Positions 1 through 63,579 of a stretch of DNA of 64,000 nucleotides are shown here, piece by piece (positions within the stretch are counted from its first letter, which is position 1; every line of letters starts with the position of its first letter). Both the position numbers and the translations under genes were made by a program. Source of the DNA: Shigella phage Sf20. The stretch is from the sequence record MF327006. The stretch is one strand, 5' to 3'. The notes below the pieces were generated by a model, which worked only from the letters and a program-made list of their open reading frames with translations, searched no databases and was not told the origin of the DNA.

Positions 1-675
1 ACGCAGCCATTGCAGAGTATCTTCTTCGCAAACATCCTCACGCCCTGAGCATGTAATGATACGATAACCATTATCACGATACAGTTTAAGCATTTCGATC
101 ACTTGCGGACGCGGTTTATCTTCTTTGACCTTTGTCCAGTCAAACGGATGACGACCGCCCTTATCCGCTAATGTCCCATCAATATCAAAGATCACCGCTT
201 TCGGTAGCATGGTATTCGGTTTGTATACTTCTTGACCCATATATTCCTGCATCAGATAAAATTGGTTACGCAAATGAGAAAGTGGAATTGCTTTCTCGCC
301 GCGATAGAAATTACGTTTCTTTAGTGTCTCAAACGGTTCATTGAACACTTGTTCAGTATACACCGCGTTAAATTCTTTTGCAAGTTCTTTGTAGAATACA
401 CGATGTTTTTCTTTCAGGTTGGTATCAGAGATAATGAGACTCAATCCGCGTGATAGAGTCTCACGAGCAATCATTCTCTGAATAGACTCTACCAGCTTTT
501 CTTTTTCCTTAGTATACTTGTATTTCAAAAGTGAGTCAACACCAAACAACATAAGACGAAGATCATCACGATTCACATTACGATAATTACTAAACCGTTT
601 ACATGTTTCCATAGCCCATGTAGTTTTACCGGACCCAGAACAACCAACGGTTAAAATCACTTCACATTTCGGCAT
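1..675 (-). CDS. pseT: polynucleotide 5'-kinase/3'-phosphatase, N-terminal ~225 aa (gene runs past window start)
   Basis: Hand-translated minus strand: MPKCEVILTVGCSGSGKTTW... (P-loop kinase) then ...AVIFDIDGTLADKGG (HAD DxDGT motif), T4 Pnk-like; ATG at 673-675 overlaps upstream stop (TAATG). Confidence 0.85.
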   Translation of the reverse strand, partial: MPKCEVILTVGCSGSGKTTWAMETCKRFSNYRNVNRDDLRLMLFGVDSLLKYKYTKEKEKLVESIQRMIARETLSRGLSLIISDTNLKEKHRVFYKELAKEFNAVYTEQVFNEPFETLKKRNFYRGEKAIPLSHLRNQFYLMQEYMGQEVYKPNTMLPKAVIFDIDGTLADKGGRHPFDWTKVKEDKPRPQVIEMLKLYRDNGYRIITCSGREDVCEEDTLQWLR

Positions 676-1127
676 TATTTCTCCTTCGGTTTGCACCGTT
701 CCTCATTAAGTTCTTTGCGATAATAACACATGATCAACTTACTTTCAAGTGTATATCTCTTGATATCCGCAAGCCAGACTCTGAATTTTTGGGAGTCCTC
801 CCACGACATAGAAACTCTAGGTTTACCGTCTATTGTATCCACTTTCAGGTCAATGTCAACTTTTTCTATTGGTGCTGGTAGTGGTGGATGTAATTTCGGT
901 TCCTGTGAATAATGGTCCATTGTACACGAAGAAAGAGCAAATACAATAGGCACAGCGAAGACATGGATTATGGCGGTCTGAAAATTCTTATGTGCTTTCT
1001 TAAACAACCAGTGTATCACGAAAATTGAAAACACCATAAGGATAATAATGCTTGCACCTATCCCCAGATAATCAACCAGATTAAAATTGCTTATCTGCTC
1101 TTGCGTAGGCAATATTTCTATGCTCAT
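675..1127 (-). CDS. putative o-spanin-like membrane/lipoprotein
   Basis: ORF track; SD AAAGGAGG; hydrophobic segments, lipobox-like FALSSC, Pro-rich region PPLPAP; position next to pseT as T4 pseT.2/pseT.3 spanins. Confidence 0.4.
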   Translation of the reverse strand: MSIEILPTQEQISNFNLVDYLGIGASIIILMVFSIFVIHWLFKKAHKNFQTAIIHVFAVPIVFALSSCTMDHYSQEPKLHPPLPAPIEKVDIDLKVDTIDGKPRVSMSWEDSQKFRVWLADIKRYTLESKLIMCYYRKELNEERCKPKEK

Positions 1128-1447
1128 TTAGTAGCCTCCTTTAATTCTTCGGTAAACTCCTTAAATGAATCATTAAGCTGTTTCTCTACCAACTTGGGTT
1201 TTTGTGCTACTACATATCCTCGTGTAGCGTCTTTCATTGCTTTGTTTTGTTCTTCTGCAAACTTAGTTCTTATTCCGTACATCTCCTTTTGTAGTGAGTC
1301 TACAACCTTCATCTTTTCATCTGTCTTTTTCTTATACTCTGTAAATTCCTGATTCAGTCGATCTACCTCCTTTTTATTTTCCCACCACATATTGCCACCT
1401 ACCCCCAGCAACACAGATATGATAACAATGTATATCAGCTTTGACAT
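1124..1447 (-). CDS. putative i-spanin-like protein (N-terminal TM helix + charged coiled-coil-like periplasmic region)
   Basis: ORF track ORF trimmed to ATG at 1445-1447 (MSKLIYIVIISVLLGVGG...); stop overlaps next start (ATGA). Confidence 0.4.
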   Translation of the reverse strand: MSKLIYIVIISVLLGVGGNMWWENKKEVDRLNQEFTEYKKKTDEKMKVVDSLQKEMYGIRTKFAEEQNKAMKDATRGYVVAQKPKLVEKQLNDSFKEFTEELKEATK

Positions 1448-1457
1448 ATTACCCCCA

Positions 1458-1485
1458 ACGACAAAAGGCGGGGAACTAGCCCCGC
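1458..1485 (-). terminator. candidate intrinsic terminator downstream of rnlA
   Basis: Minus-sense hairpin GCGGGG-CUAGUU-CCCCGC followed by CUUUUGU. Confidence 0.35.
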
Positions 1486-1491
1486 TTATTA

Positions 1492-2661
1492 TTACCAATC
1501 AATCTTATCAGCCGGAATCAGTTTCTTATAATTCCGTAGATAGTAAGTTTTCATTGAAGCCAGAATACGGTCATAATCAAGACCATCAAATGCAATCATC
1601 AGACACATGAAAATATATGCTTGTGCATCACCGTGTTTACGTGATTCGATAGTCGCATTTGATGCATATGTCTTTCTGTCTTCTCCCGCGTGTGCGTTAT
1701 AAAATTCTGTTGCTGTCGTGAAGGCATTGCGAAGAATAGACCTGAATGCTTCCTCGAATAGCTCGATTCGTTCCAGTGCTTCCGGTTCGCCTTCATATGC
1801 AGCACGCAAATCATCGGTTTCGCTTTCTACGACATAGTAGATCAGGTTATTAGGAAACATCGATGTGTTTTTAATGTTATGCACACCAATATACCATTCA
1901 CTCTTCACTTTGAACAGTTGACCGTCTTTAGTGCGTGCAACAATTCCTTCGATACCTTCTGCGGTCCGAACTTCATCAAGAATATTGCTAAAACGCGCTG
2001 AATCAACCTGTAGCGCATTTACCAGATGAGGACGTAGGATTGCGTCAGCAAATAGCATTTGATGCGGTACGTACTCTCCTGTGACGTTATGGCGTACATT
2101 CAGAAGTGTTAGCGACGGTTCAGAATATTCTACAACAATTCGGTTGCTGGGTGCTGTATATTCAAAGTTGAAAGTATAATCAGACCCAATATCAGCAATC
2201 TTAGCGCGTAGATCCGCATACTTCTCTGAATACAGAAGACCGTTTGCTCTCTCTGCCTGGCTTGAGTACAAGGCCGCTTTAGACTTCAACTGAACATAGC
2301 CGTTATCAATGTATGTGCTTACTAGACTACCGTCCATTTTGTCCATGACCATTTCCACATCTTCCGGCTTAAAGCGAGCGCGATCATTCTCACCCAAATT
2401 AAAAAACTTCTCCATAGGACGAGATGCGATGCGGACCGGACGACCTTTATCGTCAATTTCAAACATGATCCCGCGACACTCTAACGCATCTGGTTTATTC
2501 CACATTTCAGGTTTGCTCAAGTACAGATAGCTAAAAATGCGCATACGGGTTTGCATCGCCGTAATTTCATCTTTGTAATAGAACGTATCAGATCCGTCAC
2601 ATAGTGCCATCAGATTTTTGAACAATGCTAAAACTTTTTTGTTGTTTTCTTTTGTTGACAT
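1492..2661 (-). CDS. rnlA: RNA ligase 1
   Basis: 389 aa; NLMALC...RIFSYLY...RPVRIASRPMEKFFNL...FNFEYTAPSNRIV... strongly T4 gp63-like; ATG at 2659-2661. Confidence 0.9.
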   Translation of the reverse strand: MSTKENNKKVLALFKNLMALCDGSDTFYYKDEITAMQTRMRIFSYLYLSKPEMWNKPDALECRGIMFEIDDKGRPVRIASRPMEKFFNLGENDRARFKPEDVEMVMDKMDGSLVSTYIDNGYVQLKSKAALYSSQAERANGLLYSEKYADLRAKIADIGSDYTFNFEYTAPSNRIVVEYSEPSLTLLNVRHNVTGEYVPHQMLFADAILRPHLVNALQVDSARFSNILDEVRTAEGIEGIVARTKDGQLFKVKSEWYIGVHNIKNTSMFPNNLIYYVVESETDDLRAAYEGEPEALERIELFEEAFRSILRNAFTTATEFYNAHAGEDRKTYASNATIESRKHGDAQAYIFMCLMIAFDGLDYDRILASMKTYYLRNYKKLIPADKIDW

Positions 2662-3058
2662 AATTTGTGTTCCATTCTGGTTTAAATTTGGTGATCAAAA
2701 CAGGTTCTTCGATATCGGCAGTGCTTATAATATCTTTACCCGTTGGATTCTCAATATATAACTCAAAGCACTGGCGGTAATAGAATGTTACTGTCTTACC
2801 TTCCTCTAGCGCCTTATGAATATTCTTACTCTTGCGAGTATCCGCTGTTGGTGTTTGTCTGTTAATGCTAGTCCGGTAATAATTGATCCGCTTTCTGAGA
2901 TTGACAGTCTGACCAATATATACCAGTTCATCATCAACAACAATAGCGTAAAGAACATTTAAACGGTTCTTCTGAGGCGGCAGAATCACATCACCATCTT
3001 TACACTCTAAACATGAATATTTAACGAATCCATAGTTTTCTATTAGCTCATTAATCAT
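2597..3058 (-). CDS. denA: endonuclease II (GIY-YIG family)
   Basis: YGFVKYSCLE...NVLYAIVVDDELVYIGQTVNLRKRINYYRT matches T4 EndoII GIY-YIG core; SD GAGGAAAGG; 3' end overlaps rnlA start by ~65 nt. Confidence 0.8.
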   Translation of the reverse strand: MINELIENYGFVKYSCLECKDGDVILPPQKNRLNVLYAIVVDDELVYIGQTVNLRKRINYYRTSINRQTPTADTRKSKNIHKALEEGKTVTFYYRQCFELYIENPTGKDIISTADIEEPVLITKFKPEWNTNYVNKRKQQKSFSIVQKSDGTM

Positions 3059-8940: not shown

Positions 8941-10173
8941 TTATACTGCCATTTGAGCGGTGATTGCTGGATGGCTTTGATAGTTGTGAATTTTAAAGTC
9001 TTTCGGAGTCTTTGTCAATACCTCATCTAAAGATTTAAATTCCGGCAACTCAATTGTTGGTTTATCAAACGGAACACGGCTTAACTGTTCCATAACTTGA
9101 TCAAAGTGGTTTTTGTAAATGTGAGTATCTCCACCAGAGAAAATCAGTTCTCCTACCTCAAGATCACACATTTTCGCTATGATGTGAGTTAACAGCGCAT
9201 AGCTGGCGACGTTAAAGGGCAAGCCCAAAAAGCTATCTACGCTTCTCTGAAACCACATGCAAGATAGTTTACCTTCATTGACATAGAATTGCACGAAAGG
9301 ATGACATACACCTAATACAGCATTATGTGTTCCTTGTACGTTCCATGAGTCAATGATGATACGTCGATCCGTTGGATTGTTTTTAATTTGTTCAATCACG
9401 TTTTGTAACTGGTCTTCCCAAATCTTCGGGCGATAGACATATTCTTCATCGTCTTTAGTGCTCGATGTGTCTACGTCCATACTAGCAAAGATCGTGGTAT
9501 CTGGTGCTAAAATATCCCCACCCAGATAATCACTATCAAGCAGATAACCGAAATAACCATCATCTACCCATTCCTGGAATCCCCACAAGCAATATGCATC
9601 ATTAACAAAATTAGATTGAGTCTTCCAGTGATCGGCTACTAAGAATTGATTATATTCAGAATCAAACTCTTCATAACGCATACCACGCCAGATAGCACAT
9701 AAACGGTCTTCTGTGTCATTGGTTGGCGTAAAGTCTTCTACCCACGGGTGTTTAAATGTATGTGTATATTTGCTCTTAACGCGCTTAATTTTGATTTCAC
9801 CATGTGGATGAATCGGTTTGCGTCGCCACGCCATACCATACATATTGCCGACATTATAACCATTGAATCGCAAAGGATTCTTTTCTTTCATATCAAGACA
9901 GTTGCCGCGCCAAATGTCGAAGGCTTCTTCGTCAAACTTGCCGCGTGTAATTTCTTGTAAGCGACGGCGATCAAGTGATCCCTCCATAAACCATAGCAAC
10001 TCGCCAATTACAGAGGCTGTAGCCATCTTTTTAGTGGTCAGTAAGGGGAAACCCTTGCTTAAGTCAATTCGCATTTCTGCACCGAATTTAGAGAGCGTAC
10101 CTACCCCCGTGCGGTCTTCACGAGGCCAGCCATTATCAAGAACATCACGCAACAGTTTCAAATATTCTTTCAT
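8941..10173 (-). CDS. td: thymidylate synthase with ~130-aa internal insertion
   Basis: DRTGVGT, TTKK, ELLWF, RRIIIDSWNV, CHPFVQFY, LGLPFNVASYALL ThyA motifs; 410 aa versus ~265-290 typical. Confidence 0.85.
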   Translation of the reverse strand: MKEYLKLLRDVLDNGWPREDRTGVGTLSKFGAEMRIDLSKGFPLLTTKKMATASVIGELLWFMEGSLDRRRLQEITRGKFDEEAFDIWRGNCLDMKEKNPLRFNGYNVGNMYGMAWRRKPIHPHGEIKIKRVKSKYTHTFKHPWVEDFTPTNDTEDRLCAIWRGMRYEEFDSEYNQFLVADHWKTQSNFVNDAYCLWGFQEWVDDGYFGYLLDSDYLGGDILAPDTTIFASMDVDTSSTKDDEEYVYRPKIWEDQLQNVIEQIKNNPTDRRIIIDSWNVQGTHNAVLGVCHPFVQFYVNEGKLSCMWFQRSVDSFLGLPFNVASYALLTHIIAKMCDLEVGELIFSGGDTHIYKNHFDQVMEQLSRVPFDKPTIELPEFKSLDEVLTKTPKDFKIHNYQSHPAITAQMAV

Positions 10174-12300: not shown

Positions 12301-12328
12301 ATTATACATTATCTCGGATCAGTGTCAA
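12301..12328 (-). promoter_or_regulatory. sigma70-type early promoter
   Basis: Minus sense TTGACA-N16-TATAAT. Confidence 0.55.
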
Positions 12329-30507: not shown

Positions 30508-30768
30508 TTATTTTCGCCATTCACCGGAAACAATAAAGTTTGTAAAGTGAACGTGGTCCGTGATAACGTCATTAAGTACCATATGCGGATATGCTTTAGT
30601 GTAATCACGTTTACGATCAGTCATCCAACCAACGAAAGTCGGTGCAAAGTACGGCACACCGTCAGATGATGCCATATTAAACCATTTATCAGCCATAAAT
30701 GCAGCCGCCCTAAGATTTTTAATTGAAGTAGTGCGACTAATTTCAAAAACTTTATCGGTAAAATTCAT
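30508..30768 (-). CDS. hypothetical protein
   Basis: ORF track 86 aa. Confidence 0.45.
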   Translation of the reverse strand: MNFTDKVFEISRTTSIKNLRAAAFMADKWFNMASSDGVPYFAPTFVGWMTDRKRDYTKAYPHMVLNDVITDHVHFTNFIVSGEWRK

Positions 30769-45291: not shown

Positions 45292-45810
45292 TTAGTAGCC
45301 GCGTTCTTGACGGGCGAAGTTTTCAGCATTTTTCAGATAGTACAGAATAAAGAGTTCTTGAGCGTCAATACCCAGCGGGATCATCTTTGACAGAATGAAG
45401 TGGATCGCGTCCACAAATTCAAATTTCACTTCAAGCTGATCTTCTGGTGACAGTTCAGAGAATTTACGCGCTCGCGCTTCCCCGTGGTTCTTTTTCCACA
45501 TTTTCCAGATTGCACTTGCATCTTTACCATTGGACATTCCACCCAGCGATGTGTAAAGCTCTCGTGTTTCGTCTGCGATAGCGTCATCCATCCGTTGCAT
45601 CCAATCCAGCATTTCACCGCAAGTCTCTAGCTTAGTTGGATTTGGGACCCAATCAAATTTTTCGGATAGTGCAACCTGCAAACCAGTTTGCATTTCTAGC
45701 ATCACCTGAAACGGATCTTTACCTTCTGCAATCGCGTGATGATATGCGGCGATAGCCGCGTTAATATCTTTTTCGTTAACCAGACCAGCACAAGAATTAA
45801 ATTCTGACAT
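45292..45810 (-). CDS. 56: dCTPase/dUTPase (MazG-like)
   Basis: ATG 45808-45810 with SD GAGGTGA; ...FARQERGY C-terminus matches T4 gp56. Confidence 0.8.
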   Translation of the reverse strand: MSEFNSCAGLVNEKDINAAIAAYHHAIAEGKDPFQVMLEMQTGLQVALSEKFDWVPNPTKLETCGEMLDWMQRMDDAIADETRELYTSLGGMSNGKDASAIWKMWKKNHGEARARKFSELSPEDQLEVKFEFVDAIHFILSKMIPLGIDAQELFILYYLKNAENFARQERGY

Positions 45811-45824
45811 ATTCACCTCATTAA

Positions 45825-47794: not shown

Positions 47795-48430
47795 TCAAGC
47801 GAATGTAGAAAGCAAACGTTTTGTTTCTTTCAGTTGTCGTTCAAGATCTTTGCGTTTCTCTTTAAGTTGCATTTTAGCATTATTTCGCTGTTTTTCAACA
47901 TCTTTATCAATATGCTTAGTCCAATTATCAATATCAGAATAAGTTGGCATACCCAATTCTAGACCTAATGCGGTTGGATACAGGGTAACAGTCCATAAAC
48001 CGCTAATCTTCTTAAATAGGTCGGGGTGTAGTGTACTATCTACATCTTCCGGTGTCAACTCTTTTTCTTCTTTCAGTGGTGGGATCTCGTCATATGGTTC
48101 CAGTGCATTTACTTTAATATCAGATACCTCATCAAAGAATCCGCGTACATCCGCAGGAAATACACAAGCAATTTCCCAACCGTGATCACGCAGAGAAGTA
48201 ATATTTTTCACTCCCCCACCATGTGTGATGATTGATGTGACATTGCCATCAAGGTCCACCGAATTTACGAGAAATGGCTTATCGTCTGTCAGATCATTAT
48301 AAAACTGTGCTTCGGCTGTAGTCATCTCCAGAAACAGATCTCGGATCGGACGACCATCAGGTGCGTTACCTTCCTTGAGAGTATAAAAGCGACTTACGAT
48401 CCATTTTGGCGGTAAAGCATTAGCGATCAT
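47795..48430 (-). CDS. hypothetical protein
   Basis: ORF track 211 aa. Confidence 0.5.
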   Translation of the reverse strand: MIANALPPKWIVSRFYTLKEGNAPDGRPIRDLFLEMTTAEAQFYNDLTDDKPFLVNSVDLDGNVTSIITHGGGVKNITSLRDHGWEIACVFPADVRGFFDEVSDIKVNALEPYDEIPPLKEEKELTPEDVDSTLHPDLFKKISGLWTVTLYPTALGLELGMPTYSDIDNWTKHIDKDVEKQRNNAKMQLKEKRKDLERQLKETKRLLSTFA

Positions 48431-48480
48431 GTTATATCTCCTATCAAATCATTCACCAGCGCCCCGTAGGGCGCATTTTA

Positions 48481-49893
48481 TTAGAAAGTCATGTTATTTG
48501 CTAGCTCGTCGAGTTTTTCTCGTTTCTCGGCTTGCTGTGCGCTTTGTGGTTTAACTTGTGCATTCTCCTGATCTGCGATCTGGTTTGGAACTTCATACCA
48601 ACGCTGATTGCCTTTTTTCACACCAACGTTAAACCGTGAATAATAGTTCTTATCACCGTAACGAGACTTGATCTGCTTCATGAGTTGAACGCCCATTTTA
48701 GCAAGGTCTTCGGTCTCGATAACACCCAACATAAAATCGGCTGTAGCCGGAAGACCTGCTGATTCAGCGGTATCACTCATGTTAAGGTCTGACGCATCCC
48801 AACCCGCGCGGGTAGTCTGTGCCGCAGTCCAACCAACAACATCCCACTTAACAAAAAATCCTCGCAGTTCTTCCGCAATCGCCTTAACTAGTGTGTAACT
48901 ATTTTCAGAGTATACACGCAAGCGAGACGATGCGCAAATCCCCAGATAGTCAACAATCACAACATCAGGTTTAAACTGTTTCTTGAGTCGCAATTCATTC
49001 ATTAACGCCTCAAAGTGATTGGAGTTCGCGCCACCAGTAGGATACTGCTTGATCATCAATTTTCCAACCGGACGATCTCCGATCTTCTTATTCTTAACAC
49101 GCTTCATACGTGCGGAATATTCCGCAAAAGAAACATTACCATTATCCAATTCATCTAATGTAATGTCAAGCAAGTTTGCGTCGATACGTTTGGCTACGAC
49201 ATGCTCTGCCATCTCCATTGAGATATACAATACATCATAACCACATTCCATATAATCCGCAGCAAGAGAACACAAGCCCAATGATTTGCCAACGTTTACA
49301 CCAGCAAGCAACACATTTAGCGTTTTTCTTTCCGCACCTCCTTTCGTGATTTTATTCAACATCGGCAGCTTAAACGGGATCTTATTCGCCTTAGTCTGAT
49401 ATAGCAAGAATCGTTTTTCGAAGTCATTAAACCAGTCATGACCTACATCAGAATCAAACGTAATGGATAGTGCTTCCTGCATGATCTCAGGAATAGCGCC
49501 CTCACCAGGCAATTTCTTATTCTGTTTCTCTTTTGGTAATTGTGCGTTCGCCTGAATCTCTAGCGCCCGTGACATTGCATTATACATGGCACGGTCACGA
49601 ATAAATTTTTCGGTTTCCTTCATTAACCAATCAAGGTCTTCCGGTGTATTCTCAAGCGAATCAAGAAGAGTTTTAGCCCCTTCATATGTTGTCTGATTGC
49701 CTCTCTCCTTGTCTAAAGCAATCTGTAATGCAGTTGGCGTAGGAATATTGGAATATTCGTCTACGTGCTTTTTAATCAGTTTATAAATCAGTTTTTCTTC
49801 GTCTTCGGTGAAGTAGTCCGCTTTAAGATGAGGCCATACATTCGTAAAGAATGTGCCATTGTAAATCAACTGTGAAAAGATAGTTTTAATCAT
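48481..49893 (-). CDS. 41: replicative DNA helicase (DnaB-like)
   Basis: 470 aa; Walker A GVNVGKS; start overlaps upstream stop (ATGA). Confidence 0.9.
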   Translation of the reverse strand: MIKTIFSQLIYNGTFFTNVWPHLKADYFTEDEEKLIYKLIKKHVDEYSNIPTPTALQIALDKERGNQTTYEGAKTLLDSLENTPEDLDWLMKETEKFIRDRAMYNAMSRALEIQANAQLPKEKQNKKLPGEGAIPEIMQEALSITFDSDVGHDWFNDFEKRFLLYQTKANKIPFKLPMLNKITKGGAERKTLNVLLAGVNVGKSLGLCSLAADYMECGYDVLYISMEMAEHVVAKRIDANLLDITLDELDNGNVSFAEYSARMKRVKNKKIGDRPVGKLMIKQYPTGGANSNHFEALMNELRLKKQFKPDVVIVDYLGICASSRLRVYSENSYTLVKAIAEELRGFFVKWDVVGWTAAQTTRAGWDASDLNMSDTAESAGLPATADFMLGVIETEDLAKMGVQLMKQIKSRYGDKNYYSRFNVGVKKGNQRWYEVPNQIADQENAQVKPQSAQQAEKREKLDELANNMTF

Positions 49894-50207
49894 ACGTAGC
49901 CCCCAACTACACGCATAACAAAGGTCTTGAGTTTATACCAGAAAGTTTCTTTTTTCAACTTTTCTTCTGCTTCTTTGATCTGCGCGGTTAACGCCTTGAT
50001 GACGTGAGGATATACCACATCACGATCTGACGGCGTGGAGTAGTCGACCACAATACCTTTAGTGTCTGGATCGTATTCAACATTATGAATATAGACAATA
50101 TGATGCTCTCCCTCTTCATCAACAATTATCAGTTCCTGAATAACTGTCTTCATTGCTTCTTGAATCAAGCCGTGTGCTTCTTCTAAACTCGTTGGTTTCT
50201 TATCCAT
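49890..50207 (-). CDS. hypothetical protein (gene 40 position)
   Basis: ORF track 105 aa; hydrophobic C-terminus. Confidence 0.45.
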   Translation of the reverse strand: MDKKPTSLEEAHGLIQEAMKTVIQELIIVDEEGEHHIVYIHNVEYDPDTKGIVVDYSTPSDRDVVYPHVIKALTAQIKEAEEKLKKETFWYKLKTFVMRVVGGYV

Positions 50208-50233
50208 AATATAATCCTCTCAGTAAAAATATC

Positions 50234-50262
50234 ATTTTACTACTTTAATTATTCTATGTCAA
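50234..50262 (-). promoter_or_regulatory. sigma70-type early promoter
   Basis: Minus sense TTGACA-N17-TAAAAT; overlaps the 3' end of the HNH gene. Confidence 0.5.
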
Positions 50263-50998
50263 CAAATTTCCAATTTGGAAAGTCTGGACTCATACAACGA
50301 CGCCGAACGGTTCCGCGCTCGTTTCCTAGTACCTTAGACACTTCCGATACGGATTTATATATCACACCATCAACAGATACAGCCTTTCGGTCTTTCCTGT
50401 TTTGGTTTTTGCTCTTTTCTCTTCTGGCTTCTACGTTCTCCGAATCATTCCATTGTCTCTTTGCTGTCTCACGGGAAGATATTGCCTTTTGTTCTTTAAC
50501 AATATCTTTAACGAGTTGTTCTTGTCCTGTTATCTTCGCCCACACATTAACAGACTGAATAGCATTAGCCTCACTCATTCCCCAGCGTTTACCGGATATA
50601 TTCTTACGACGCACGCGTAGAAATTCGTTAAAGACTTCTTCGCATTGGTGCATATAATCACGAAATCCATATTTCTTAGCCCATGCCTCTTTAATTGCAT
50701 CAGACATATTTTCGGCAATACGTCTACGCACCCATGCATACTCCTTATTATTTCGACCGTGACTGGTCATGCACATCATACGTGCAGCCATAAGAAGACC
50801 AACATTCTTAGGATACATTTTAGCTAACAATAAGTGAGCGGTAAAATGTTCCTCCGGTGTCAATGGAACGAGATTTTCTCGGTCATCCGTACCACCCATA
50901 CAACGCGGTTTAACGTGATGGATCTCTATGTATCCGGTCGGCTTCTCGCGGGTTCTTGCTCGTTCAATCAATCTTTCGTAATGTGCTTTGTAGTTCAT
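50249..50998 (-). CDS. HNH homing-endonuclease-like protein
   Basis: ATG 50996-50998 with SD GGAGGA; IEIHHVKPRCMGGTDDRENLVPLTPEEHFTAH; basic C-terminus. Confidence 0.7.
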   Translation of the reverse strand: MNYKAHYERLIERARTREKPTGYIEIHHVKPRCMGGTDDRENLVPLTPEEHFTAHLLLAKMYPKNVGLLMAARMMCMTSHGRNNKEYAWVRRRIAENMSDAIKEAWAKKYGFRDYMHQCEEVFNEFLRVRRKNISGKRWGMSEANAIQSVNVWAKITGQEQLVKDIVKEQKAISSRETAKRQWNDSENVEARREKSKNQNRKDRKAVSVDGVIYKSVSEVSKVLGNERGTVRRRCMSPDFPNWKFVDIE

Positions 50999-51009
50999 GT
51001 GATCCTCCA

Positions 51010-51035
51010 TATGAAAAAGGGGCATAAAGCCCCTT
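51010..51035 (-). terminator. candidate intrinsic terminator downstream of uvsX
   Basis: Minus-sense hairpin AAGGGGC-UUUAU-GCCCCUU then UUUCAU. Confidence 0.4.
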
Positions 51036-51049
51036 AACCGCCACTGATA

Positions 51050-52120
51050 TTATGCTAACATATCTTCTACTTCTTTGTCAACAGCTTCATCACTGATAAC
51101 TTGACCTAACTGATAGTGATCATTGATCGCTTTCTGGAAGTGTTCATTGGTCAGAAGTGGTTTCCAAAAATCAACACTATCCGTTTCTTTCGCTCGGAAC
51201 TTGCGTTCTTCGGTTTCCATTTCTCCTGTTTCAGCATTCAGGATTGAACGAGAATACCAACCATTCGACGGTTTAACAATCCAACCCAACTCGATAGCCA
51301 GTTCAAGTAATCCAGAGTAAGGATCAATACCACCGCTAAAGGTTACGCTAATAGGGAACTTCGATTTTTCTTTAACGGTTCGTGATTTTTCCGCATTCAG
51401 GATAAAATCATAACCAGTAATTTCGGTTCCTTCTTTCTGCTGACGACGGCTAATAATGAACACTTCGTTTGCACTGTACATACCACCAGTACCACCAGAC
51501 ATAATCTCTTTCGGATACAGAGACATTTCAGAGTAAGTATGGTTAATAGCGATGCACGGGATATCATTCATAGTCAGATAAGGTGTCATCATACGGAACA
51601 AGCCTTTAAGTGCTTTAGCTCGCGTCATATCCTGTGCGGATTTCTCATTAATCGCGTCTTCAACTTCTTTTTTACTTGCTAAGTTACCGATTGAGTCAAT
51701 AAAGATGATCACTTTATCTTCACGGGTAATTTGCTCAAGCTGGTTCATGATCTCAAATTTAAGTTCTTCGATGTTCTTGATTGGAACGTGCACCACGCGA
51801 TCAGGATCTACACCCATAGATGACAGATATGCGGAAGTAATACCAAACTCAGAATCAAAGAACAAGCAAGCCGCATCGGGATTCTGTTTCATGTATGCAC
51901 TAACACAAGTTAATCCCATGTTTGATTTAAAGTGCTTAGATGGACCAGCAAAGAAAATCAGACCAGATTGAAAGCCTTTTTTAAGATCGCCAGAAAACGC
52001 AATATTCAGCATCGGGATCTTAGTGCGAGTATTTGTTTTTTCGTTAAAGAAGCTGGATTTAGACAGTACCGCAGTAGTTTTCAGGGTAGAGTTCTTTTTC
52101 AGTTTTTCCAGTACAGACAT
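51050..52120 (-). CDS. uvsX: UvsX recombinase (RecA-like)
   Basis: 356 aa; FFNEKTNTRTKIPMLNIAFSG; Walker A GPSKHFKS. Confidence 0.9.
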   Translation of the reverse strand: MSVLEKLKKNSTLKTTAVLSKSSFFNEKTNTRTKIPMLNIAFSGDLKKGFQSGLIFFAGPSKHFKSNMGLTCVSAYMKQNPDAACLFFDSEFGITSAYLSSMGVDPDRVVHVPIKNIEELKFEIMNQLEQITREDKVIIFIDSIGNLASKKEVEDAINEKSAQDMTRAKALKGLFRMMTPYLTMNDIPCIAINHTYSEMSLYPKEIMSGGTGGMYSANEVFIISRRQQKEGTEITGYDFILNAEKSRTVKEKSKFPISVTFSGGIDPYSGLLELAIELGWIVKPSNGWYSRSILNAETGEMETEERKFRAKETDSVDFWKPLLTNEHFQKAINDHYQLGQVISDEAVDKEVEDMLA

Positions 52121-52131
52121 TATTAATACCT

Positions 52132-52359
52132 CTATTCAGTTAATCCGTAATACTTTAATTGCTTCATTGTTATTCGATCTTTGTAGTGCTCTTGAATTAA
52201 CTTTTTCATCGCATCAACATCGATCGTCACAAATACTTCGTTGCTGTGATTTCCGTGAACTTTCTTGAAATGCTCTATGCCTTCCTCACGTTCACGTTTA
52301 ATCTTTTCAATGTCTCTCATAATATATTTCTCACATTGGCGGGTATCGTAACCCAACAC
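52132..52359 (-). CDS. hypothetical protein
   Basis: ORF track 75 aa; only ORF between uvsX and 43. Confidence 0.4.
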   Translation of the reverse strand: MLGYDTRQCEKYIMRDIEKIKREREEGIEHFKKVHGNHSNEVFVTIDVDAMKKLIQEHYKDRITMKQLKYYGLTE

Positions 52360-52381
52360 CCGCCATTATACACACTTTATC

Positions 52382-55060
52382 TTAAATGTCAAACAGGTCC
52401 GTAAGCGATGCCACCTTTTCATATTGCAGCTTTGCAGCCGTGGTAATGTTCTCCAGTGGTTTGACGAAAGTCTTATTAAACAACAAAGGCCAGTCCAACC
52501 ACTTCAACACCTCTGATTCAATTTCTGGAGGAATACGAGTACCAGACAACCAACCAAAACAGATTTCTCCAAACGGATTTCGATCTTTCAGCGGTACAAT
52601 CATAACCTTCTCGCCTTCACGAATCGGATCTAGTCCGAATTTTCGAGCATTACGATTATAACACAATACACTCTTAACCGCATACGGACAACCCTTAATC
52701 GGATACCCGTTTGAATCGCTGTATTTCTGTAGGTTGTTTGCAGATGATACCGCAGCAACATCAAGATAGTCAAGTTTTCTAAATTCTTGCTCAAAAATAC
52801 CGTAGTATTCCTGCAATGACTCTTCACCTTCCTGCAACATACGGCGAATACATTCTTTCAGTGATTTCTGACATGCTTTAGGGGTGGAGCTACGTTGCGT
52901 TTCCAAGCCCATGATTTTTAGCTTAGGTTCAGCAAAGCGCGTTCCTTCCATATCCCAAACATTAAGAGCATAACGCTTTTTACCAGTCCAGAATCCACCG
53001 ATACCCGCAGATTTCAACGGAGGACCAGCAATTGCCTCTCGGTCCATAAACATCAAGTGCTCATAATTGTTCATGTACTCGCACAACTCGCGATATCCTT
53101 TGTCGATAATCGGTTCCATTCGATGTTTACCGAAATTATCAAGGAAGTCAACAAGTTTTTCGGTATCGTCGAAACGGTCTTCCCCGCCAACCTTATCAAC
53201 AACATTGTTAACCAGCACATAAACGGAGTCAGTATCACAATAACGAACATATGCAAAATCGGTTGTTCCGCAAAGCTCGTTTAAGTATTCGTTAATCTTA
53301 CGCTCAATCCACTGAATTGCAAGCTGACCGAACAGTGTGATCGCACTAGCGTTACGGAGATCATAAAAACGGAATTTAGGATTCCCCAACGCACCATAAA
53401 GGGAGTTGATCAAAACTTTTCGAGAAAGCTGGTTTGTATTGCACAAGATCGACTCGTCTTTACATTCTTCCAGCAATTTCTCTAAGGTATCTTTGCTTAA
53501 TTCAGAAAGCATCGATTTAAACGCTTCATCAAAGTCGTGACGCACTTCAACGCTATAGCTAATGGTTCCCCCATAAACATGATTTTCATCGTGTAGAATC
53601 GCTTTACATAGTTCAGCATTGCGATCACATGCCAACATCATGTTTTTGTACTGCTTACGCTGATCGAATACCTTTTTAATCTCAATCGGTACGATACCAT
53701 GAATATCTTTTCGATACATCCATCCGTTAGGCGAGCAAGAATACTCATCACTAGGACGTGGTGCAGTTTTATTGATATACTCGTGCATCGGTGCAGCATC
53801 AAAAGATCCGGCGATTGTTTCAGGCGAAATATTAACCTGTCGAATAATAGATGGATACAGACTTGTTAAGTCAAAGCTCATCATCCAACGGTAAGCATTA
53901 GGTACTGGCTCTTTTACAAATGCGCCCGGATAAGTCTGCTTAGGCTGTATCTTGTTCTCCGGTACTACTTTACCCTCAGCTTTCAGAGATCCGAAAATAA
54001 TAGCATCCCATACTTTCATCGGGTTATAAACATGGTTAAATTTAATCTTTGCATAGAAACATAGACTATACACAAGATCGATAAATCCACGCTTTTTATC
54101 AATCGCCAGCACACGATCAACGTCGCCGATGTTATAATCGATGTAAAGTTGATGGTTATCATCACGCAATTTCTTTAACGGACCATCATAATCAACCTTA
54201 CCGATTCCTGTCTCATATTCAGCAACATAATCTAACGCATATGTTGGTTGAGTCGTAAAGCTAAATTTCTTGTACAGGTCAATATAATCAAGGCTTTCGA
54301 TCCCCATGATCGTAAATGCTTCACGCTCGTTACCAAAATCATCCTGTGAGATTCGGGATTTAATCTTACCGCACGGGCTTAGACGGTTAGCGGTTCTACT
54401 TCCGAACTTATTACTGATACGTTTAATGATATATGGAATATCGAATGTTTCTGTGTTCCAGCCAGTGAAACCAACGGGTCGGTTTTCCTCAAAGAATCGG
54501 ATGTATTCTAACAGCAATTCATCTTCTGTGTCATAGAAGTTATAAACAACGCGCTCTACAATATCAGGTCGAAGAATAGACTTGCTAGATTCCCAGATTT
54601 CACCGTTTTTTCCTTTCAAATCAAATACAAAGAAACGATCATGTACGGAATCATAATGCGTAATTGCATCGATAGGATATTTCGCTTCTTCTGGTTTAGG
54701 AAATTCTGGGGCAGTGACCTCAATATCAACCCATGCTACACGGATTTTATTTCGGTCATATCGAATCTCGCCTTTATATGTATCGGACAGATAGGAGATG
54801 ATAAAATCATCCATCCCTAGTGCCTCCTGCCCCATTTCTCCCATCTTTTTACGCCATTTGTTGGCCTCGTTCATAGATGGGAATTTTTTAGCAATGCAAG
54901 GCTTGCCGTAGATATCTTTATAATTCGTAACCATACCAGGAGCGGCATGATGAAATAAAGTTGGCGTATATTCAACGTAACGCTCTTGTTCTTGTCCAGC
55001 ATCATCAATATAACGCTCGTAGATCTTATCACCCACTCGCTCACATGACAGAAAATACAT
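52382..55060 (-). CDS. 43: DNA polymerase (family B)
   Basis: ATG 55058-55060 with SD AAGGAG (track GTG extension rejected); DIEV exo motif, SLYPSII, YCDTDS. Confidence 0.95.
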   Translation of the reverse strand: MYFLSCERVGDKIYERYIDDAGQEQERYVEYTPTLFHHAAPGMVTNYKDIYGKPCIAKKFPSMNEANKWRKKMGEMGQEALGMDDFIISYLSDTYKGEIRYDRNKIRVAWVDIEVTAPEFPKPEEAKYPIDAITHYDSVHDRFFVFDLKGKNGEIWESSKSILRPDIVERVVYNFYDTEDELLLEYIRFFEENRPVGFTGWNTETFDIPYIIKRISNKFGSRTANRLSPCGKIKSRISQDDFGNEREAFTIMGIESLDYIDLYKKFSFTTQPTYALDYVAEYETGIGKVDYDGPLKKLRDDNHQLYIDYNIGDVDRVLAIDKKRGFIDLVYSLCFYAKIKFNHVYNPMKVWDAIIFGSLKAEGKVVPENKIQPKQTYPGAFVKEPVPNAYRWMMSFDLTSLYPSIIRQVNISPETIAGSFDAAPMHEYINKTAPRPSDEYSCSPNGWMYRKDIHGIVPIEIKKVFDQRKQYKNMMLACDRNAELCKAILHDENHVYGGTISYSVEVRHDFDEAFKSMLSELSKDTLEKLLEECKDESILCNTNQLSRKVLINSLYGALGNPKFRFYDLRNASAITLFGQLAIQWIERKINEYLNELCGTTDFAYVRYCDTDSVYVLVNNVVDKVGGEDRFDDTEKLVDFLDNFGKHRMEPIIDKGYRELCEYMNNYEHLMFMDREAIAGPPLKSAGIGGFWTGKKRYALNVWDMEGTRFAEPKLKIMGLETQRSSTPKACQKSLKECIRRMLQEGEESLQEYYGIFEQEFRKLDYLDVAAVSSANNLQKYSDSNGYPIKGCPYAVKSVLCYNRNARKFGLDPIREGEKVMIVPLKDRNPFGEICFGWLSGTRIPPEIESEVLKWLDWPLLFNKTFVKPLENITTAAKLQYEKVASLTDLFDI

Positions 55061-55092
55061 AATATAAACTCCTTCACTTACGAAAGACACTC

Positions 55093-55121
55093 ATTATAGG
55101 GGAATCGACTTAGTTTGTCAA
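55093..55121 (-). promoter_or_regulatory. sigma70-type promoter upstream of gene 43
   Basis: Minus sense TTGACA-N17-TATAAT, flanked by TAGGGG/CCCCTA inverted repeat. Confidence 0.5.
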
Positions 55122-55142
55122 TACCCCTATCCCATCAGTATC

Positions 55143-55505
55143 TTAGCGTCCGATCTGATATTTCTCGATCAGCGTCCACTCTTCTTTCTGTTTGAAAGAC
55201 AGTACACGGAAATTATTAACTTCGGTAGTTTCAAAATCACTATCAATCAGGGTACACAGATTCCACTGCGCCAGAAGTTTTGCAATGTTATTACGGCGTA
55301 ATTCATCTTCCCACGTCATTTTAACACTACGACCATCTAATTTCAACAACTCCTTGAAATGAACGATGTAATAGCGCCCCTTCTTCTGGAGAATATGACA
55401 AGACTGATACAGTGTCTTGTCTCGATTGTTGGCAATGCCGCAGCGGGTTAAAGTCTCCTTAATTTTAAGGAAGTTTTCGGGACTAATCAAATTAATTTCA
55501 ATCAT
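55143..55505 (-). CDS. regA: translational repressor RegA
   Basis: 120 aa; ETLTRCGIANNRDKTLYQSCHILQKKGRYYIVHFKE nearly identical in pattern to T4 RegA. Confidence 0.9.
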   Translation of the reverse strand: MIEINLISPENFLKIKETLTRCGIANNRDKTLYQSCHILQKKGRYYIVHFKELLKLDGRSVKMTWEDELRRNNIAKLLAQWNLCTLIDSDFETTEVNNFRVLSFKQKEEWTLIEKYQIGR

Positions 55506-55506
55506 T

Positions 55507-56085
55507 TTACCACCTTTCTATAATCTTTTTAAGTCGTTTCCTTTCTGTCTGATTCTTAGTAACACCCGCCAAAAGTTCATCGGTCGCATACGGTTTAATG
55601 TGCTTCAATAACTTGTCCATATATCCCTTTTCATTAGCCAAATCGAGATAAAACCGGGCGTCATCCATATTTACACAATATGCTTTCGCCACTGCCATTA
55701 AAACCAATTTTTGGTCCAATTCTTCTGTTAGTTTAGCCCATTTACCGTATCGTTTCCCCTTAGAAATACTCTGTAAGAGATAATCAAAATGCATTTGATC
55801 TGGGAGGCCATGACCGATTAAATTCATCACATACGCGCTATATAGGCAATCTGCGTGCTGGGAAAGAGCGGTGTTAATCCATCTCTGGTTATATGCAGAA
55901 TTGTTTCCCACATTAACGCGCTGTTTATCTAAGGTGATATGATCCATCAGAGCAAATAATGCATTGTCGGTTTTCTCGGTGAATGTGTCAGCTAATTCAG
56001 ACACCTTTTCCCAATCACGAGAGCGCCATGCAATTTCATGCTCGTTTAATTGTGTATCATCTTCACCGAAAAATTGACCTAACAT
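55507..56085 (-). CDS. 62: clamp loader small subunit
   Basis: 192 aa; QLNEHEIAWRSRDW...KRYGKWAKL matches gp62; coupled (TAATG). Confidence 0.85.
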   Translation of the reverse strand: MLGQFFGEDDTQLNEHEIAWRSRDWEKVSELADTFTEKTDNALFALMDHITLDKQRVNVGNNSAYNQRWINTALSQHADCLYSAYVMNLIGHGLPDQMHFDYLLQSISKGKRYGKWAKLTEELDQKLVLMAVAKAYCVNMDDARFYLDLANEKGYMDKLLKHIKPYATDELLAGVTKNQTERKRLKKIIERW

Positions 56086-63056: not shown

Positions 63057-63344
63057 TTACAGCATACTTAATACCGTTTGCCGTGTACTAACCCACATAG
63101 CAGAAAGCAGTTCTGGCGTGTGTGGCTGTTTGTAGATATCACGTAATTTTCCGATCGCGTAGATATACGCATCACGATTATCATCGATGATAGCTTGTTC
63201 AGCCCACCGCTTAAGGCGTGCAATCTCTCGCGAGTTCTTACGCAAGATCTTTTCCGCTTTCTTAGCGGCTTTAGCCTCTAGTTCTGCTTGTACTTTGTCT
63301 ACTTCATTCACTGCAATCTGGTCATGCTGTTCATCGTAAGTCAT
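63057..63344 (-). CDS. hypothetical protein
   Basis: ORF track 95 aa. Confidence 0.45.
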   Translation of the reverse strand: MTYDEQHDQIAVNEVDKVQAELEAKAAKKAEKILRKNSREIARLKRWAEQAIIDDNRDAYIYAIGKLRDIYKQPHTPELLSAMWVSTRQTVLSML

Positions 63345-63345
63345 G

Positions 63346-63579
63346 TTATTTTACCTCTGGGATATAATCAATTATTAAAGAAAATTCATCTTCTGATACA
63401 TTATAGCTATGTGAGATTGTACCCGTAAAGACCTCAAGATCCGGTGATTTGATATTGCACGGATCGATAATCACCGGAACGCCGCAATCTCTCAAAAATA
63501 ATTTGGCGAAATACGGCACGAGGTCAGTTTCAAACTCTGCTTCTTCCAGCAAACGGGAAATGTTAATTTTCAATCTCAT
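63346..63579 (-). CDS. hypothetical protein
   Basis: ORF track 77 aa. Confidence 0.45.

What the first reader, a model, noticed from the sequence alone, without database searches (positions are those of the whole stretch)
52121..52381. No dCMP hydroxymethylase, beta-gt or imm between uvsX and 43; alpha-gt and alc also absent
In T4, beta-gt, gene 42 and imm lie between uvsX and 43, alpha-gt between 47 and 55, and alc beside pseT. Here those slots hold only a 75-aa ORF (52132-52359), two small ORFs (63057-63579) and spanin-like genes. This suggests a T4-like phage with unmodified cytosine, as reported for RB49-type pseudo-T-evens.
Basis: partly seen in the sequence, partly recalled or inferred. 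Interest (0 to 1): 0.45.

Follow-up and report, generated by a model that had tools for sequence, protein, structure and literature searches.

The report
RB49-type phage lacks T4 cytosine-modification genes
This window comes from an RB49-like (Krischvirus) relative of phage T4 that lacks T4's genes for making hydroxymethyl/glucosyl-cytosine DNA, which has been documented for this phage group for over a decade, so the finding is correct but ordinary.

Summary
Observation confirmed. The window is a Krischvirus, about 97% nucleotide-identical to RB49, JSE, KFS-EC and SAP. Only 261 bp separate uvsX (51050-52120, -) from gene 43 (52382-55090, -), against 3.6 kb in T4 (segA, b-gt, 42, imm, imm.1).

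No homologue of 42, a-gt, b-gt, alc, imm, denB, ndd or arn occurs in the window or in the complete RB49 and SAP genomes. gp42's only hit is td, a true thymidylate synthase (Asn321 where gp42 has Asp179). Gene 56 and denA are retained.

Cytosine-containing motifs (CCWGG, CCCGG, CCAAG, GAGCC) are depleted 2-6 fold here but not in T4, consistent with exposed canonical cytosine.

This is already published (Petrov 2010; Yaung 2014 restriction digests of RB49; HPLC/MS of TB34).

One 2026 paper reports hmC/gentiobiosyl-hmC in Krischvirus SAP without explanation. I found that SAP's extra DNA relative to RB49 lies at annotated homing-endonuclease genes, inside the terminase gene and at one 110-aa ORF. 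All 9 substitutions separating SAP from unmodified TB34 convert CCSGG to CCWGG.

Interest is low.

The parts
51050..52120 (-). uvsX (RecA-like recombinase)
   Evidence: tblastn with T4 UvsX: 60% identity over 350 aa, E=1e-149; syntenic with RB49p024.
52132..52320 (-). 62-aa ORFan (equivalent to RB49p025, phrog_12120), the only gene between 43 and uvsX
   Evidence: PHROG hit E=4e-42, function unknown, no Pfam hit. Only 4 protein clusters at 94-100% identity among 5.8 billion proteins. ATG start supported by the RB49 annotation and by the non-conserved upstream 'extension'. AF2 model is low confidence, predicted as three helices.
52337..52392 (-). PeSL-type element: -35 TTGACA (52392-52387, overlapping the last codons and TAA stop of gene 43 at 52384-52382), 16-nt spacer, -10 TATAAT (52370-52365), 12-bp stem-loop (52365-52337, loop GGUUA)
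   Evidence: 12 of 12 consensus promoter. Fold -28.1 kcal/mol, z=-4.4, 0 of 200 shuffles as stable. Stem arms invariant in window, RB49, KFS-EC and SAP; the variable base lies in the loop. Architecture as described for RB49/phi1 PeSLs (PMC2839356 and PMC4122927).
52382..55090 (-). gene 43 DNA polymerase
   Evidence: tblastn with T4 gp43: 55% identity over 903 aa, E=0.
63057..63579 (-). a-gt.4 (63057-63344) and a-gt.5 (63346-63579) homologues; the only genes between 47 and 55, with no alpha-gt
   Evidence: tblastn E=8e-13 and 6e-8; Pfam DUF2654 E=9e-23 and DUF5491 E=3e-4.
675..1498 (-). pseT.2 (675-1127) and pseT.3 (1124-1498) spanin homologues abutting rnlA; no alc in the T4 alc slot
   Evidence: tblastn E=1.5e-19 and 1.8e-10; T4 order pseT.3-alc-rnlA.
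8941..10173 (-). td thymidylate synthase (410 aa); the only TS-family gene, and not a gene 42 equivalent
   Evidence: Pfam PF00303 E=1e-84. E=1e-68 to E. coli ThyA, with Cys and Asn aligned to C146 and N177. T4 gp42 Cys148/Asp179 align to Cys290/Asn321 at only 23% identity.
45292..45816 (-). gene 56 homologue (dCTPase/dUTPase family), retained
   Evidence: 49% identity to T4 gp56, E=7e-51; Pfam dUTPase_2 and phrog_173 NTP pyrophosphohydrolase.
2597..3058 (-). denA (endonuclease II, GIY-YIG) homologue, retained
   Evidence: 49% identity to T4 DenA, E=4e-42; phrog_1111.

Best explanation
The window is part of a Krischvirus (RB49-like) genome that never carried, or has long since lost, the T-even cytosine-hypermodification module, and that replicates with ordinary dCTP. 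At the gene 43-uvsX junction, where T4 holds segA, b-gt, 42, imm and imm.1, this phage has one compact cassette. It consists of a PeSL element followed by a genus-specific 62-aa early ORFan. The PeSL is a consensus sigma-70 early promoter whose -35 box overlaps the gene 43 stop, followed by a stem-loop. The stem-loop can only form in transcripts reading through from gene 43, so it would act as their attenuator or 3' stabiliser.

Shown here: the gene identities, the absence of 42, a-gt, b-gt, alc, imm, denB, ndd and arn from the window and from complete RB49 and SAP genomes, the TS identity of td, the promoter and stem-loop, and the motif-avoidance signature.

Inferred: with no gp42, dCMP is not hydroxymethylated. 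With no Alc or DenB, nothing discriminates against dC-DNA, which fits the published generalized transduction by RB49. The retained gp56 homologue most likely serves as a dUTPase and/or feeds dCMP through Cd and Td into dTMP for a 60% A+T genome, rather than excluding dCTP. Protection from restriction relies partly on avoiding cytosine-containing sites rather than on base modification.
For: About 97% nucleotide identity to RB49, JSE, KFS-EC and SAP, with 58 records covering at least 80% of the query. Synteny with the RB49 annotation: uvsX, RB49p025, 43. tblastn of T4 proteins against the window, complete RB49 and complete SAP gives no significant hit for b-gt, a-gt, imm, imm.1, alc, denB, ndd, arn, motA or asiA; gp42 hits only td (E=0.003-0.006). 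td is a true TS. Perfect promoter plus stable stem-loop, with 10 perfect TTGACA-N16-18-TATAAT sites, all on the minus strand, against 0.07 expected. PeSL description in PMC2839356 and PMC4122927. Observed versus Markov-expected counts in the window: CCAGG 31/66, CCCGG 8/29.5, CCAAG 13/63, GAGCC 6/36; the same in RB49 and SAP, whereas T4 ratios are 0.84-1.19. Literature: gene distribution table in Petrov 2010 PMC2993671; RB49 cut by HpaII and NheI in PMC4041780; TB34 canonical by HPLC/MS in PMC13390438; Krischvirus lacks the hmC synthase, denB and ndd and transduces, PMC12115623 and PMC8056088.
Against: Only 64 kb of a roughly 165-kb genome is visible, and no record in the phage collection is identical to it (best 97.7%). 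PMC13390438 reports 5-hmdC and alpha-gentiobiosyl-mdC in Krischvirus SAP, which has the same gene content. The genus carries a C5-methyltransferase-like gene outside the window. A retained gp56 dCTPase homologue and DenA are counter-intuitive for a dC-DNA phage. No chemistry exists for this phage's own DNA.
Confidence: 0.88

Rival explanations
1. The phage does hypermodify its cytosines (hmC or glycosyl-hmC) through enzymes with no detectable homology to gp42, a-gt or b-gt, as reported for Krischvirus SAP. On this reading, absence of the T4 genes says nothing about the DNA chemistry.
For: PMC13390438 reports SAP as BrxU-sensitive, with about one-third 5-hmdC and two-thirds alpha-gentiobiosyl-mdC, and no synthase or glycosyltransferase gene found. 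Many Krischvirus ORFs have unknown function.
Against: SAP's extra DNA relative to RB49 consists of segments at annotated homing-endonuclease genes, one inside the terminase gene, and one at a 110-aa ORF. RB49 DNA is cut by HpaII and NheI. TB34, 99.96% identical to SAP, is canonical. Over 116 kb the two differ only by 9 CCSGG-to-CCWGG substitutions, single-base indels that are mostly homopolymer-length differences, and one ~84-bp indel. SAP's modification profile is the same as that of seven Tequatroviruses isolated in the same study, which makes a mixed lysate or sample swap the simpler reading (my inference). SAP's own genome shows the cytosine-motif avoidance signature that ghmC-protected T4 lacks.
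Confidence: 0.05
2. The modification genes exist in this phage but sit elsewhere, in the roughly 100 kb not covered by the window.
For: The window covers only about 39% of the genome. T4-like hyperplastic regions exchange cassettes through PeSL recombination, and the hmC genes have been proposed to move as an island (PMC8056088).
Against: Complete RB49 and SAP genomes, about 97% identical to the window, contain none. Published genus-wide surveys find none. The dependent genes alc and denB are also missing from their conserved slots in the window. The window shows cytosine-motif avoidance.
Confidence: 0.03
3. Bulk cytosine is canonical, but a rare CCSGG-type motif is C5-methylated by the phage's own small methyltransferase-like protein (the RB49p189 family), so 'unmodified' is not strictly true.
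For: RB49p189 (238 aa, phrog_757 'DNA methyltransferase') has FDGSG, FPPC and IENP motifs resembling C5-methyltransferase motifs I, IV and VI. TB34's annotators and PMC8056088 also call it a cytosine methyltransferase. All 9 substitutions between TB34 and SAP over 116 kb change the central base of CC[C]GG at 9 of 13 [AC]CCCGG[TC] sites, as expected from modification-induced base-calling errors or 5mC-linked hotspots. CCCGG is depleted about 2.6-fold genome-wide.
Against: RB49p189 has no Pfam hit and no sequence match to a solved structure. TB34 HPLC/MS detected no modified nucleoside, although about 30 sites per genome would probably fall below detection. The gene lies outside the window. The sequencing platforms of SAP and TB34 were not checked. 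CCWGG is equally depleted, so the depletion may simply reflect restriction avoidance.
Confidence: 0.2

Closest known systems
Escherichia phage RB49 and its genus Krischvirus (phi1, JSE, KFS-EC, JEP8, TB34, SAP)
   Same: 96.5-97.7% nucleotide identity for the listed full-length matches over the 8-kb query. Identical gene order uvsX, 62-aa ORF, 43, regA, 62, 44, 45, 46, 47, a-gt.4, a-gt.5, 55. Same 410-aa td, gene 56 and denA. Same absence of 42, gt, alc, denB, ndd, arn, motA and asiA.
   Different: The window carries an HNH/I-TevI-type homing endonuclease between gene 40 and uvsX (50249-51025; also in KFS-EC and JEP8, not in RB49 or SAP). It lacks RB49's HNH gene between 47 and a-gt.4. It has a different endonuclease-like ORF at 11464-12309 and an extra 86-aa ORF at 30508-30768.
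T4 (Tequatrovirus) hmC/glucosyl-hmC module: 56, 42, 1, a-gt, b-gt with alc, denA, denB, arn
   Same: The flanking core genes are orthologous and syntenic (uvsX, 43, 47, 55, pseT, rnlA). Homologues of 56, denA, td and frd are in the window, and cd, gene 1 and dam are in RB49.
   Different: 42, a-gt, b-gt, alc, denB, arn, ndd, imm and imm.1 are absent. The 43-uvsX gap is 261 bp against 3.6 kb. Cytosine-containing motifs are depleted here but not in T4, and GATC is depleted in T4 but not here.
PeSL (promoter-early stem-loop) cassettes of RB49/phi1 (Arbiol et al. 2010; Comeau et al. 2014)
   Same: Near-perfect TTGACA-N16/17-TATAAT promoter, adjacent G-run/C-run stem-loop, position between an upstream stop codon and the start of a small ORFan, and the SLS just downstream of the -10 box, which is one of the five described subclasses.
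   Different: This copy sits inside the conserved replication module rather than in a large hyperplastic region. I did not find it listed by name in the papers. Its promoter, terminator and recombination activities are untested here.
Other canonical-cytosine T4 relatives (RB43/Pseudotevenvirus)
   Same: They lack 42, the glucosyltransferases, alc and denB, retain denA and 56, and perform generalized transduction (PMC8056088, PMC12115623, PMC2993671).
   Different: Different genus. According to PMC12115623, Pseudotevenvirus has ndd while Krischvirus does not. Not examined at sequence level here.

Membership tests
T-even hmC/ghmC DNA-modification system | dCMP hydroxymethylase (gp42): TS-fold enzyme with Asp at the position of TS Asn177 | tested here: not met
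   gp42 hits only td (E=0.003). td has Asn321 aligned to gp42 Asp179 and matches E. coli ThyA at E=1e-68. No other hit in complete RB49 or SAP.
T-even hmC/ghmC DNA-modification system | DNA alpha- and/or beta-glucosyltransferase | tested here: not met
   tblastn with T4 a-gt: no hit at E<=10 in the window, none at E<1 in RB49, and one noise hit (E=0.64) in SAP. b-gt best E=0.19-0.52, inside gene 55. The 47-55 slot holds only a-gt.4 and a-gt.5.
T-even hmC/ghmC DNA-modification system | dCTPase/dUTPase (gp56) excluding dCTP from the pool | tested here: inconclusive
   A homologue is present (45292-45816, 49% identity), but substrate specificity cannot be read from sequence. Petrov 2010 lists 56 in nearly all T4 relatives regardless of modification.
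T-even hmC/ghmC DNA-modification system | dC-DNA exclusion functions Alc and DenB (same distribution as gene 42) | tested here: not met
   No significant tblastn hit in the window, RB49 or SAP. The alc slot is closed, with pseT.3 abutting rnlA.
T-even hmC/ghmC DNA-modification system | hmC or glycosyl-hmC replacing C in virion DNA | not testable with these tools
   Literature only. RB49 is cut by HpaII and NheI. TB34 is canonical by HPLC/MS, while SAP is reported as modified.
Genus Krischvirus (RB49-like) | High nucleotide identity and synteny with RB49 | tested here: met
   96.5-97.7% identity for the listed full-length matches; 56 of 63 matching records in the 95-99% band and 58 covering at least 80% of the 8-kb query. 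Gene-for-gene synteny. Only three window segments (703, 252 and 787 bp) lack an RB49 match.
PeSL regulatory cassette | Near-consensus sigma-70 early promoter in an intergenic spacer after an upstream stop codon | tested here: met
   TTGACA-16-TATAAT, 12 of 12, with the -35 box overlapping the gene 43 stop. It is one of 10 perfect sites, all on the minus strand, against 0.07 expected.
PeSL regulatory cassette | Adjacent stable stem-loop with G-run/C-run arms | tested here: met
   12-bp stem GGCGGG.../...CCCGCC, z=-4.4. Arms are invariant across four phages, so there is no covariation to test.
PeSL regulatory cassette | Flanks a small, phylogenetically restricted ORF(an) | tested here: met
   The 62-aa ORF is found only in four clusters at 94-100% identity; phrog_12120, function unknown.
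PeSL regulatory cassette | Promoter and terminator activity, and recombination into mini-circles | not testable with these tools
   Shown experimentally for other PeSLs in PMC2839356. This copy has no U-tract, so the simple terminator scan found nothing.

The most novel reading that the evidence does not exclude
Like the reported Krischvirus SAP, this phage could replace its cytosines with hmC or gentiobiosyl-hmC through a pathway that shares no detectable homology with gp42, TET or the known DNA glycosyltransferases. In that case, absence of the T4 genes would not predict DNA chemistry, and an entirely new hypermodification route would be hidden among the genus's ORFans. A milder version is that the genus methylates a rare CCSGG-type motif with its own minimal C5-methyltransferase-like protein.
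Probability: 0.05. Interest if true: 0.8.

Novelty: already known. Interest (0 to 1): 0.15.

Why it matters
The absence itself is textbook for pseudo-T-even phages. It matters in practice because canonical-cytosine T4 relatives are cut by ordinary restriction enzymes, can be cloned and edited with standard tools, are targeted normally by CRISPR and R-M systems, and can carry out generalized transduction, which is relevant to phage-therapy safety. The only live question is the single published claim of hmC-type DNA in a Krischvirus with the same gene set. My comparison narrows that puzzle: there are no distinguishing genes, and the only base substitutions are motif-specific CCSGG-to-CCWGG changes. 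It also gives a cheap sequence-only indicator (cytosine-motif avoidance, present here and absent in T4) that argues for canonical cytosine.

Tried and rejected
(1) The weak gp42 hit in the 410-aa ORF at 8941-10173 was considered as a cryptic hydroxymethylase. I rejected this: it is td, with Asn321 at the specificity position, Cys290, and E=1e-68 to E. coli ThyA. (2) Function of the 62-aa ORFan: no Pfam hit, a PHROG of unknown function, homologues only within the genus, and an AF2 single-sequence model at pLDDT 66 / pTM 0.32, so I ran no fold search because matches would be meaningless. (3) The 75-aa GTG start was rejected. (4) The stem-loop as a canonical intrinsic terminator: no U-tract and no scan hit; I keep it as a PeSL-type attenuator or stabiliser only by analogy. 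(5) I looked for a TET- or C5-methyltransferase-based route. RB49 Dam is D12-class N6A, p143 is an amino-methyltransferase (NPPF), and p189 is C5-like by motifs only, with no Pfam or PDB support. No TET/JBP search was run. (6) I looked for gene-content differences that could explain SAP's reported modification; the SAP-specific segments lie at annotated homing-endonuclease genes, inside the terminase gene and at one 110-aa ORF. (7) TB34 116-165 kb and the JEP8 genome were not fetched, so the SAP/TB34 diff covers 116 of 165 kb, and whole-genome absence was checked in two relatives, not in the closest one.

Full report
IDENTITY AND OBSERVATION. A megablast of window 48000-56000 finds 63 phage records. 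Fifty-eight of them cover at least 80% of the query, and the listed full-length matches are 96.5-97.7% identical; all are RB49-like Krischviruses such as JEP8, pEJ01, KFS-EC, RB49, JSE, TB34 and SAP. G+C is about 40% throughout. The RB49 and KFS-EC annotations show the same order on the minus strand: 41, 40, uvsX, a 189-bp hypothetical gene, 43, regA, 62, 44, 45, rpbA, 46, 47, a-gt.4, a-gt.5, 55. tblastn with T4 proteins confirms uvsX at 51056-52105 (60% identity, E=1e-149), gene 43 at 52391-55057 (55%, E=0), gene 47, gene 55, pseT, pseT.2, pseT.3 and rnlA. The flagged interval 52121-52381 is therefore the complete 261-bp spacer between genes 43 and uvsX. In T4 the same junction is 3,635 bp and carries segA, b-gt, 42, imm and imm.1. 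The T4 47-55 junction carries 47.1, a-gt, mobB and a-gt.2 to a-gt.5, and alc lies between pseT.3 and rnlA.

ARE THE GENES ABSENT? T4 b-gt, a-gt, imm, imm.1, alc, denB, ndd and arn give only noise against all six frames of the window (best E=0.1 or worse). The window is only about 39% of a genome, so I assembled the complete RB49 genome and the complete SAP genome and repeated the search. The result was the same, and motA and asiA had no hit at all. gp42 has one weak hit (E=0.003-0.006), inside the 410-aa ORF at 8941-10173. That ORF is td: Pfam Thymidylat_synt E=1e-84 and E=1e-68 to E. coli ThyA with the catalytic Cys and Asn177 aligned. In a direct alignment, gp42 Cys148 and Asp179 fall on Cys290 and Asn321. 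The Asn-versus-Asp column is what separates dUMP-specific TS from dCMP hydroxymethylase; this is established knowledge of the family, and I tested the residue here. The window therefore contains no gene 42 equivalent.

WHAT IS IN THE INTERVAL. On the minus strand, the last codons of gene 43 (…TTTGACATTTAA) contain a TTGACA box (52392-52387). Sixteen nucleotides later comes TATAAT (52370-52365), a 12-of-12 sigma-70 consensus. A 12-bp stem with a 5-nt loop (52365-52337, GGCGGGUGUUG…/…CGAUACCCGCC) starts at the last base of the -10 box. The 101-nt region folds at -28.1 kcal/mol against -16.0±2.8 for shuffles (z=-4.4, 0 of 200 as stable). The ATG at 52320 opens a 62-aa ORF that ends 11 nt before the uvsX start.

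In a four-phage alignment, every variable column upstream of the ATG is non-synonymous in that frame, and the database homologues have different, indel-bearing N-termini, while the stem arms are invariant. The 62-aa ATG start used by the RB49 annotators is therefore the better call.

The promoter-plus-stem-loop-plus-ORFan layout is what Arbiol et al. (PMC2839356) and Comeau et al. (PMC4122927) named PeSL in RB49 and phi1: near-perfect TTGACA…TATAAT promoters with G-run/C-run stem-loops in one of five positions, including just downstream of the -10 box. Those authors showed that PeSLs act as promoters and attenuators and recombine to shuffle ORFan cassettes. A transcript started at this promoter would begin inside the 5' arm, so the hairpin can form only in read-through RNA from gene 43. 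I infer that it attenuates or stabilises the 3' end of the gene 43 message. It has no U-tract. The window has 10 perfect TTGACA-N16-18-TATAAT sites, all on the minus strand, against 0.07 expected.

The ORFan is phrog_12120 (function unknown) with no Pfam hit. It is found in only four clusters at 94-100% identity among 5.8 billion proteins. AF2 gives a low-confidence model predicted as three helices (pLDDT 66). Its function remains unknown; my best guess is an early accessory or host-takeover protein.

WHAT IS RETAINED, AND THE LIKELY WORKING. The window keeps homologues of gp56 (45292-45816, 49% identity), denA (2597-3058, 49%), td and frd. RB49 also has cd, the gene 1 dNMP kinase and dam. The following is inference from the established T4 pathway (56, then 42, then 1, then glucosylation). 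Without gp42, dCMP cannot be hydroxymethylated. Without Alc and DenB, dC-DNA is neither silenced nor shredded, which fits the experimentally shown generalized transduction by RB49 (PMC12115623 and PMC8056088). The gp56 homologue probably acts as a dUTPase or supplies dCMP to Cd and Td for dTMP synthesis. None of these enzyme activities was testable here.

INDEPENDENT SEQUENCE EVIDENCE. Using a maximum-order Markov expectation on both strands, the window is depleted in CCAGG/CCTGG (31 observed against 66 expected), CCCGG (8/29.5), CCAAG (13/63), GAGCC (6/36), CAGGC (14/47) and GCTCC (9/35), while GATC is at expectation (712/708). RB49 and SAP give the same ratios (0.27-0.48). In the 99 kb of T4 that I hold, the same motifs sit at 0.84-1.19 and GATC drops to 0.32. 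Avoidance of cytosine-containing sites such as CCWGG (the EcoRII/Dcm site) is what a lineage with exposed canonical cytosine would be expected to show, and what a ghmC-protected lineage lacks. This is suggestive rather than proof.

WHAT IS ALREADY KNOWN. Petrov et al. 2010 (PMC2993671, Table 4) list gene 42, alc and denB for the T-even, JS98, RB69, CC31, Acinetobacter-phage and 44RR groups only, the glucosyltransferases for T-evens and CC31 only, and 56 and denA for nearly all T4 relatives. Yaung et al. 2014 (PMC4041780) state that RB49 lacks the hydroxymethylase and b-gt, and show that HpaII and NheI cut RB49 DNA but not T4 DNA. PMC8056088 and PMC12115623 repeat this at genus level. The finding is therefore correct and already known.

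THE ONE PUBLISHED ANOMALY. PMC13390438 (2026) reports that Krischvirus TB34 has canonical DNA by HPLC/MS. Its 99.96%-identical relative SAP is BrxU-sensitive and contains about one-third 5-hmdC and two-thirds alpha-gentiobiosyl-mdC. No synthase or glycosyltransferase gene was found, and the authors call the phenomenon 'unexplained'. Both phages are about 97% identical to the window. I checked three things.

First, SAP has no T4-type modification gene. Second, the six SAP segments absent from RB49 lie at annotated homing-endonuclease genes (four segments), inside the terminase large-subunit gene (one) and at a 110-aa hypothetical ORF (one). Third, over TB34 1-116 kb the two genomes differ by single-base indels, most of them TB34 homopolymer shortenings, which split uvsW, gp29, nrdB, gp43, uvsX and other genes in TB34's annotation; by one ~84-bp indel near SAP 39.7 kb; and by exactly nine substitutions.

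SAP's reported profile equals that of seven Tequatroviruses from the same study, and SAP's genome carries the cytosine-motif avoidance signature. I therefore think a mixed or swapped lysate is the simplest explanation. That is my inference, and I keep a 5% rival for a truly novel pathway.

A SIDE OBSERVATION. All nine SAP/TB34 substitutions change the central base of CC[C]GG to CC[T]GG (CCSGG to CCWGG). They fall at 9 of the 13 [AC]CCCGG[TC] sites in that 116 kb. Sanger-sequenced RB49 carries the SAP allele at 6 of the 7 changed sites I could place. One of the nine corresponds to window 56904 in gene 44, where the window reads C. Such motif-exclusive differences suggest modification-induced base-calling errors or 5mC-linked hotspots. 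The genus encodes a 238-aa protein (RB49p189, outside the window) with FDGSG, FPPC and IENP motifs resembling C5-methyltransferase motifs I, IV and VI, though it has no Pfam or PDB support. Site-specific methylation of roughly 30 sites per genome would not contradict 'no bulk modification' and would probably escape HPLC detection. I rate it at about 0.2.

LIMITS AND VERDICT. I could not see the remaining 100 kb of this phage's genome, could not test any enzyme activity, and did not complete the SAP/TB34 diff beyond 116 kb. The most novel reading still open is a cryptic hypermodification pathway, at roughly 5% probability.

Noticed in passing
window 8941-10173 (-): The thymidylate synthase is 410 aa because about 170 residues (roughly aa 83-253) are inserted between the two conserved TS halves, at the site where L. 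casei TS has its small insert. The same length is annotated in RB49, SAP and TB34. The insert had no Pfam match and its role is unknown.
   Followed up: partly
window 50249-51025 (-): A 258-aa HNH plus I-TevI-DNA-binding-domain homing endonuclease (phrog_655; N-terminus 52% identical to T4 MobB) lies between gene 40 and uvsX. It is absent from RB49 and SAP but annotated in KFS-EC and JEP8, so it is a mobile insertion next to the flagged junction.
   Followed up: partly
window 11464-12309 (-) and 30508-30768 (-): Two more segments have no match in RB49 or SAP. One is a 281-aa endonuclease-like ORF (phrog_681) where RB49 has a 485-aa 'endonuclease' and SAP a 110-aa ORF. The other is an 86-aa ORFan (phrog_19692). 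Perfect sigma-70 promoters flank the first at 11448-11475 and 12301-12328, consistent with PeSL-mediated cassette exchange.
   Followed up: partly
window, whole; sites listed: There are ten perfect TTGACA-N16-18-TATAAT promoters, all on the minus strand (0.07 expected by chance), including one directly upstream of gene 43 at 55093-55121.
   Followed up: partly
window, whole; also RB49 (L001, L005-L008) and SAP (L009-L012): Cytosine-containing 5-mers are strongly depleted (CCAAG, CCWGG, CCCGG, GAGCC, CAGGC, GCTCC at 0.17-0.5 of Markov expectation) and GATC is normal. T4 shows the reverse pattern: those motifs at 0.84-1.19 and GATC at 0.32.
   Followed up: yes
L009-L011 (SAP) versus L013-L015 (TB34); window 56902-56906: All 9 base substitutions between the reportedly modified SAP and the unmodified TB34 over 116 kb convert CC[C]GG to CC[T]GG at [AC]CCCGG[TC] sites. 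RB49 and the window carry the C allele where checked (RB49 at 6 of 7 sites, the window at its one site). Most of the other differences are TB34 homopolymer shortenings. This suggests a motif-specific modified base or a base-calling artefact, and the source paper does not mention it.
   Followed up: partly
L006:37479-38195 (-) (RB49p189; SAP_055; TB34TRB_052): A 238-aa protein, conserved in the genus and outside the window, has C5-cytosine-methyltransferase-like motifs (FDGSG, FPPC, IENP) but no Pfam hit and no match to solved structures. It is unusually short for a C5 methyltransferase.
   Followed up: partly
L013-L015 (TB34, OX001802.1): The TB34 record splits many core genes (uvsW, gp29, inh, nrdB, rnlA, gp39, uvsX, gp43, gp47) at single-base homopolymer deletions relative to SAP. 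These look like assembly errors rather than biology.
   Followed up: partly
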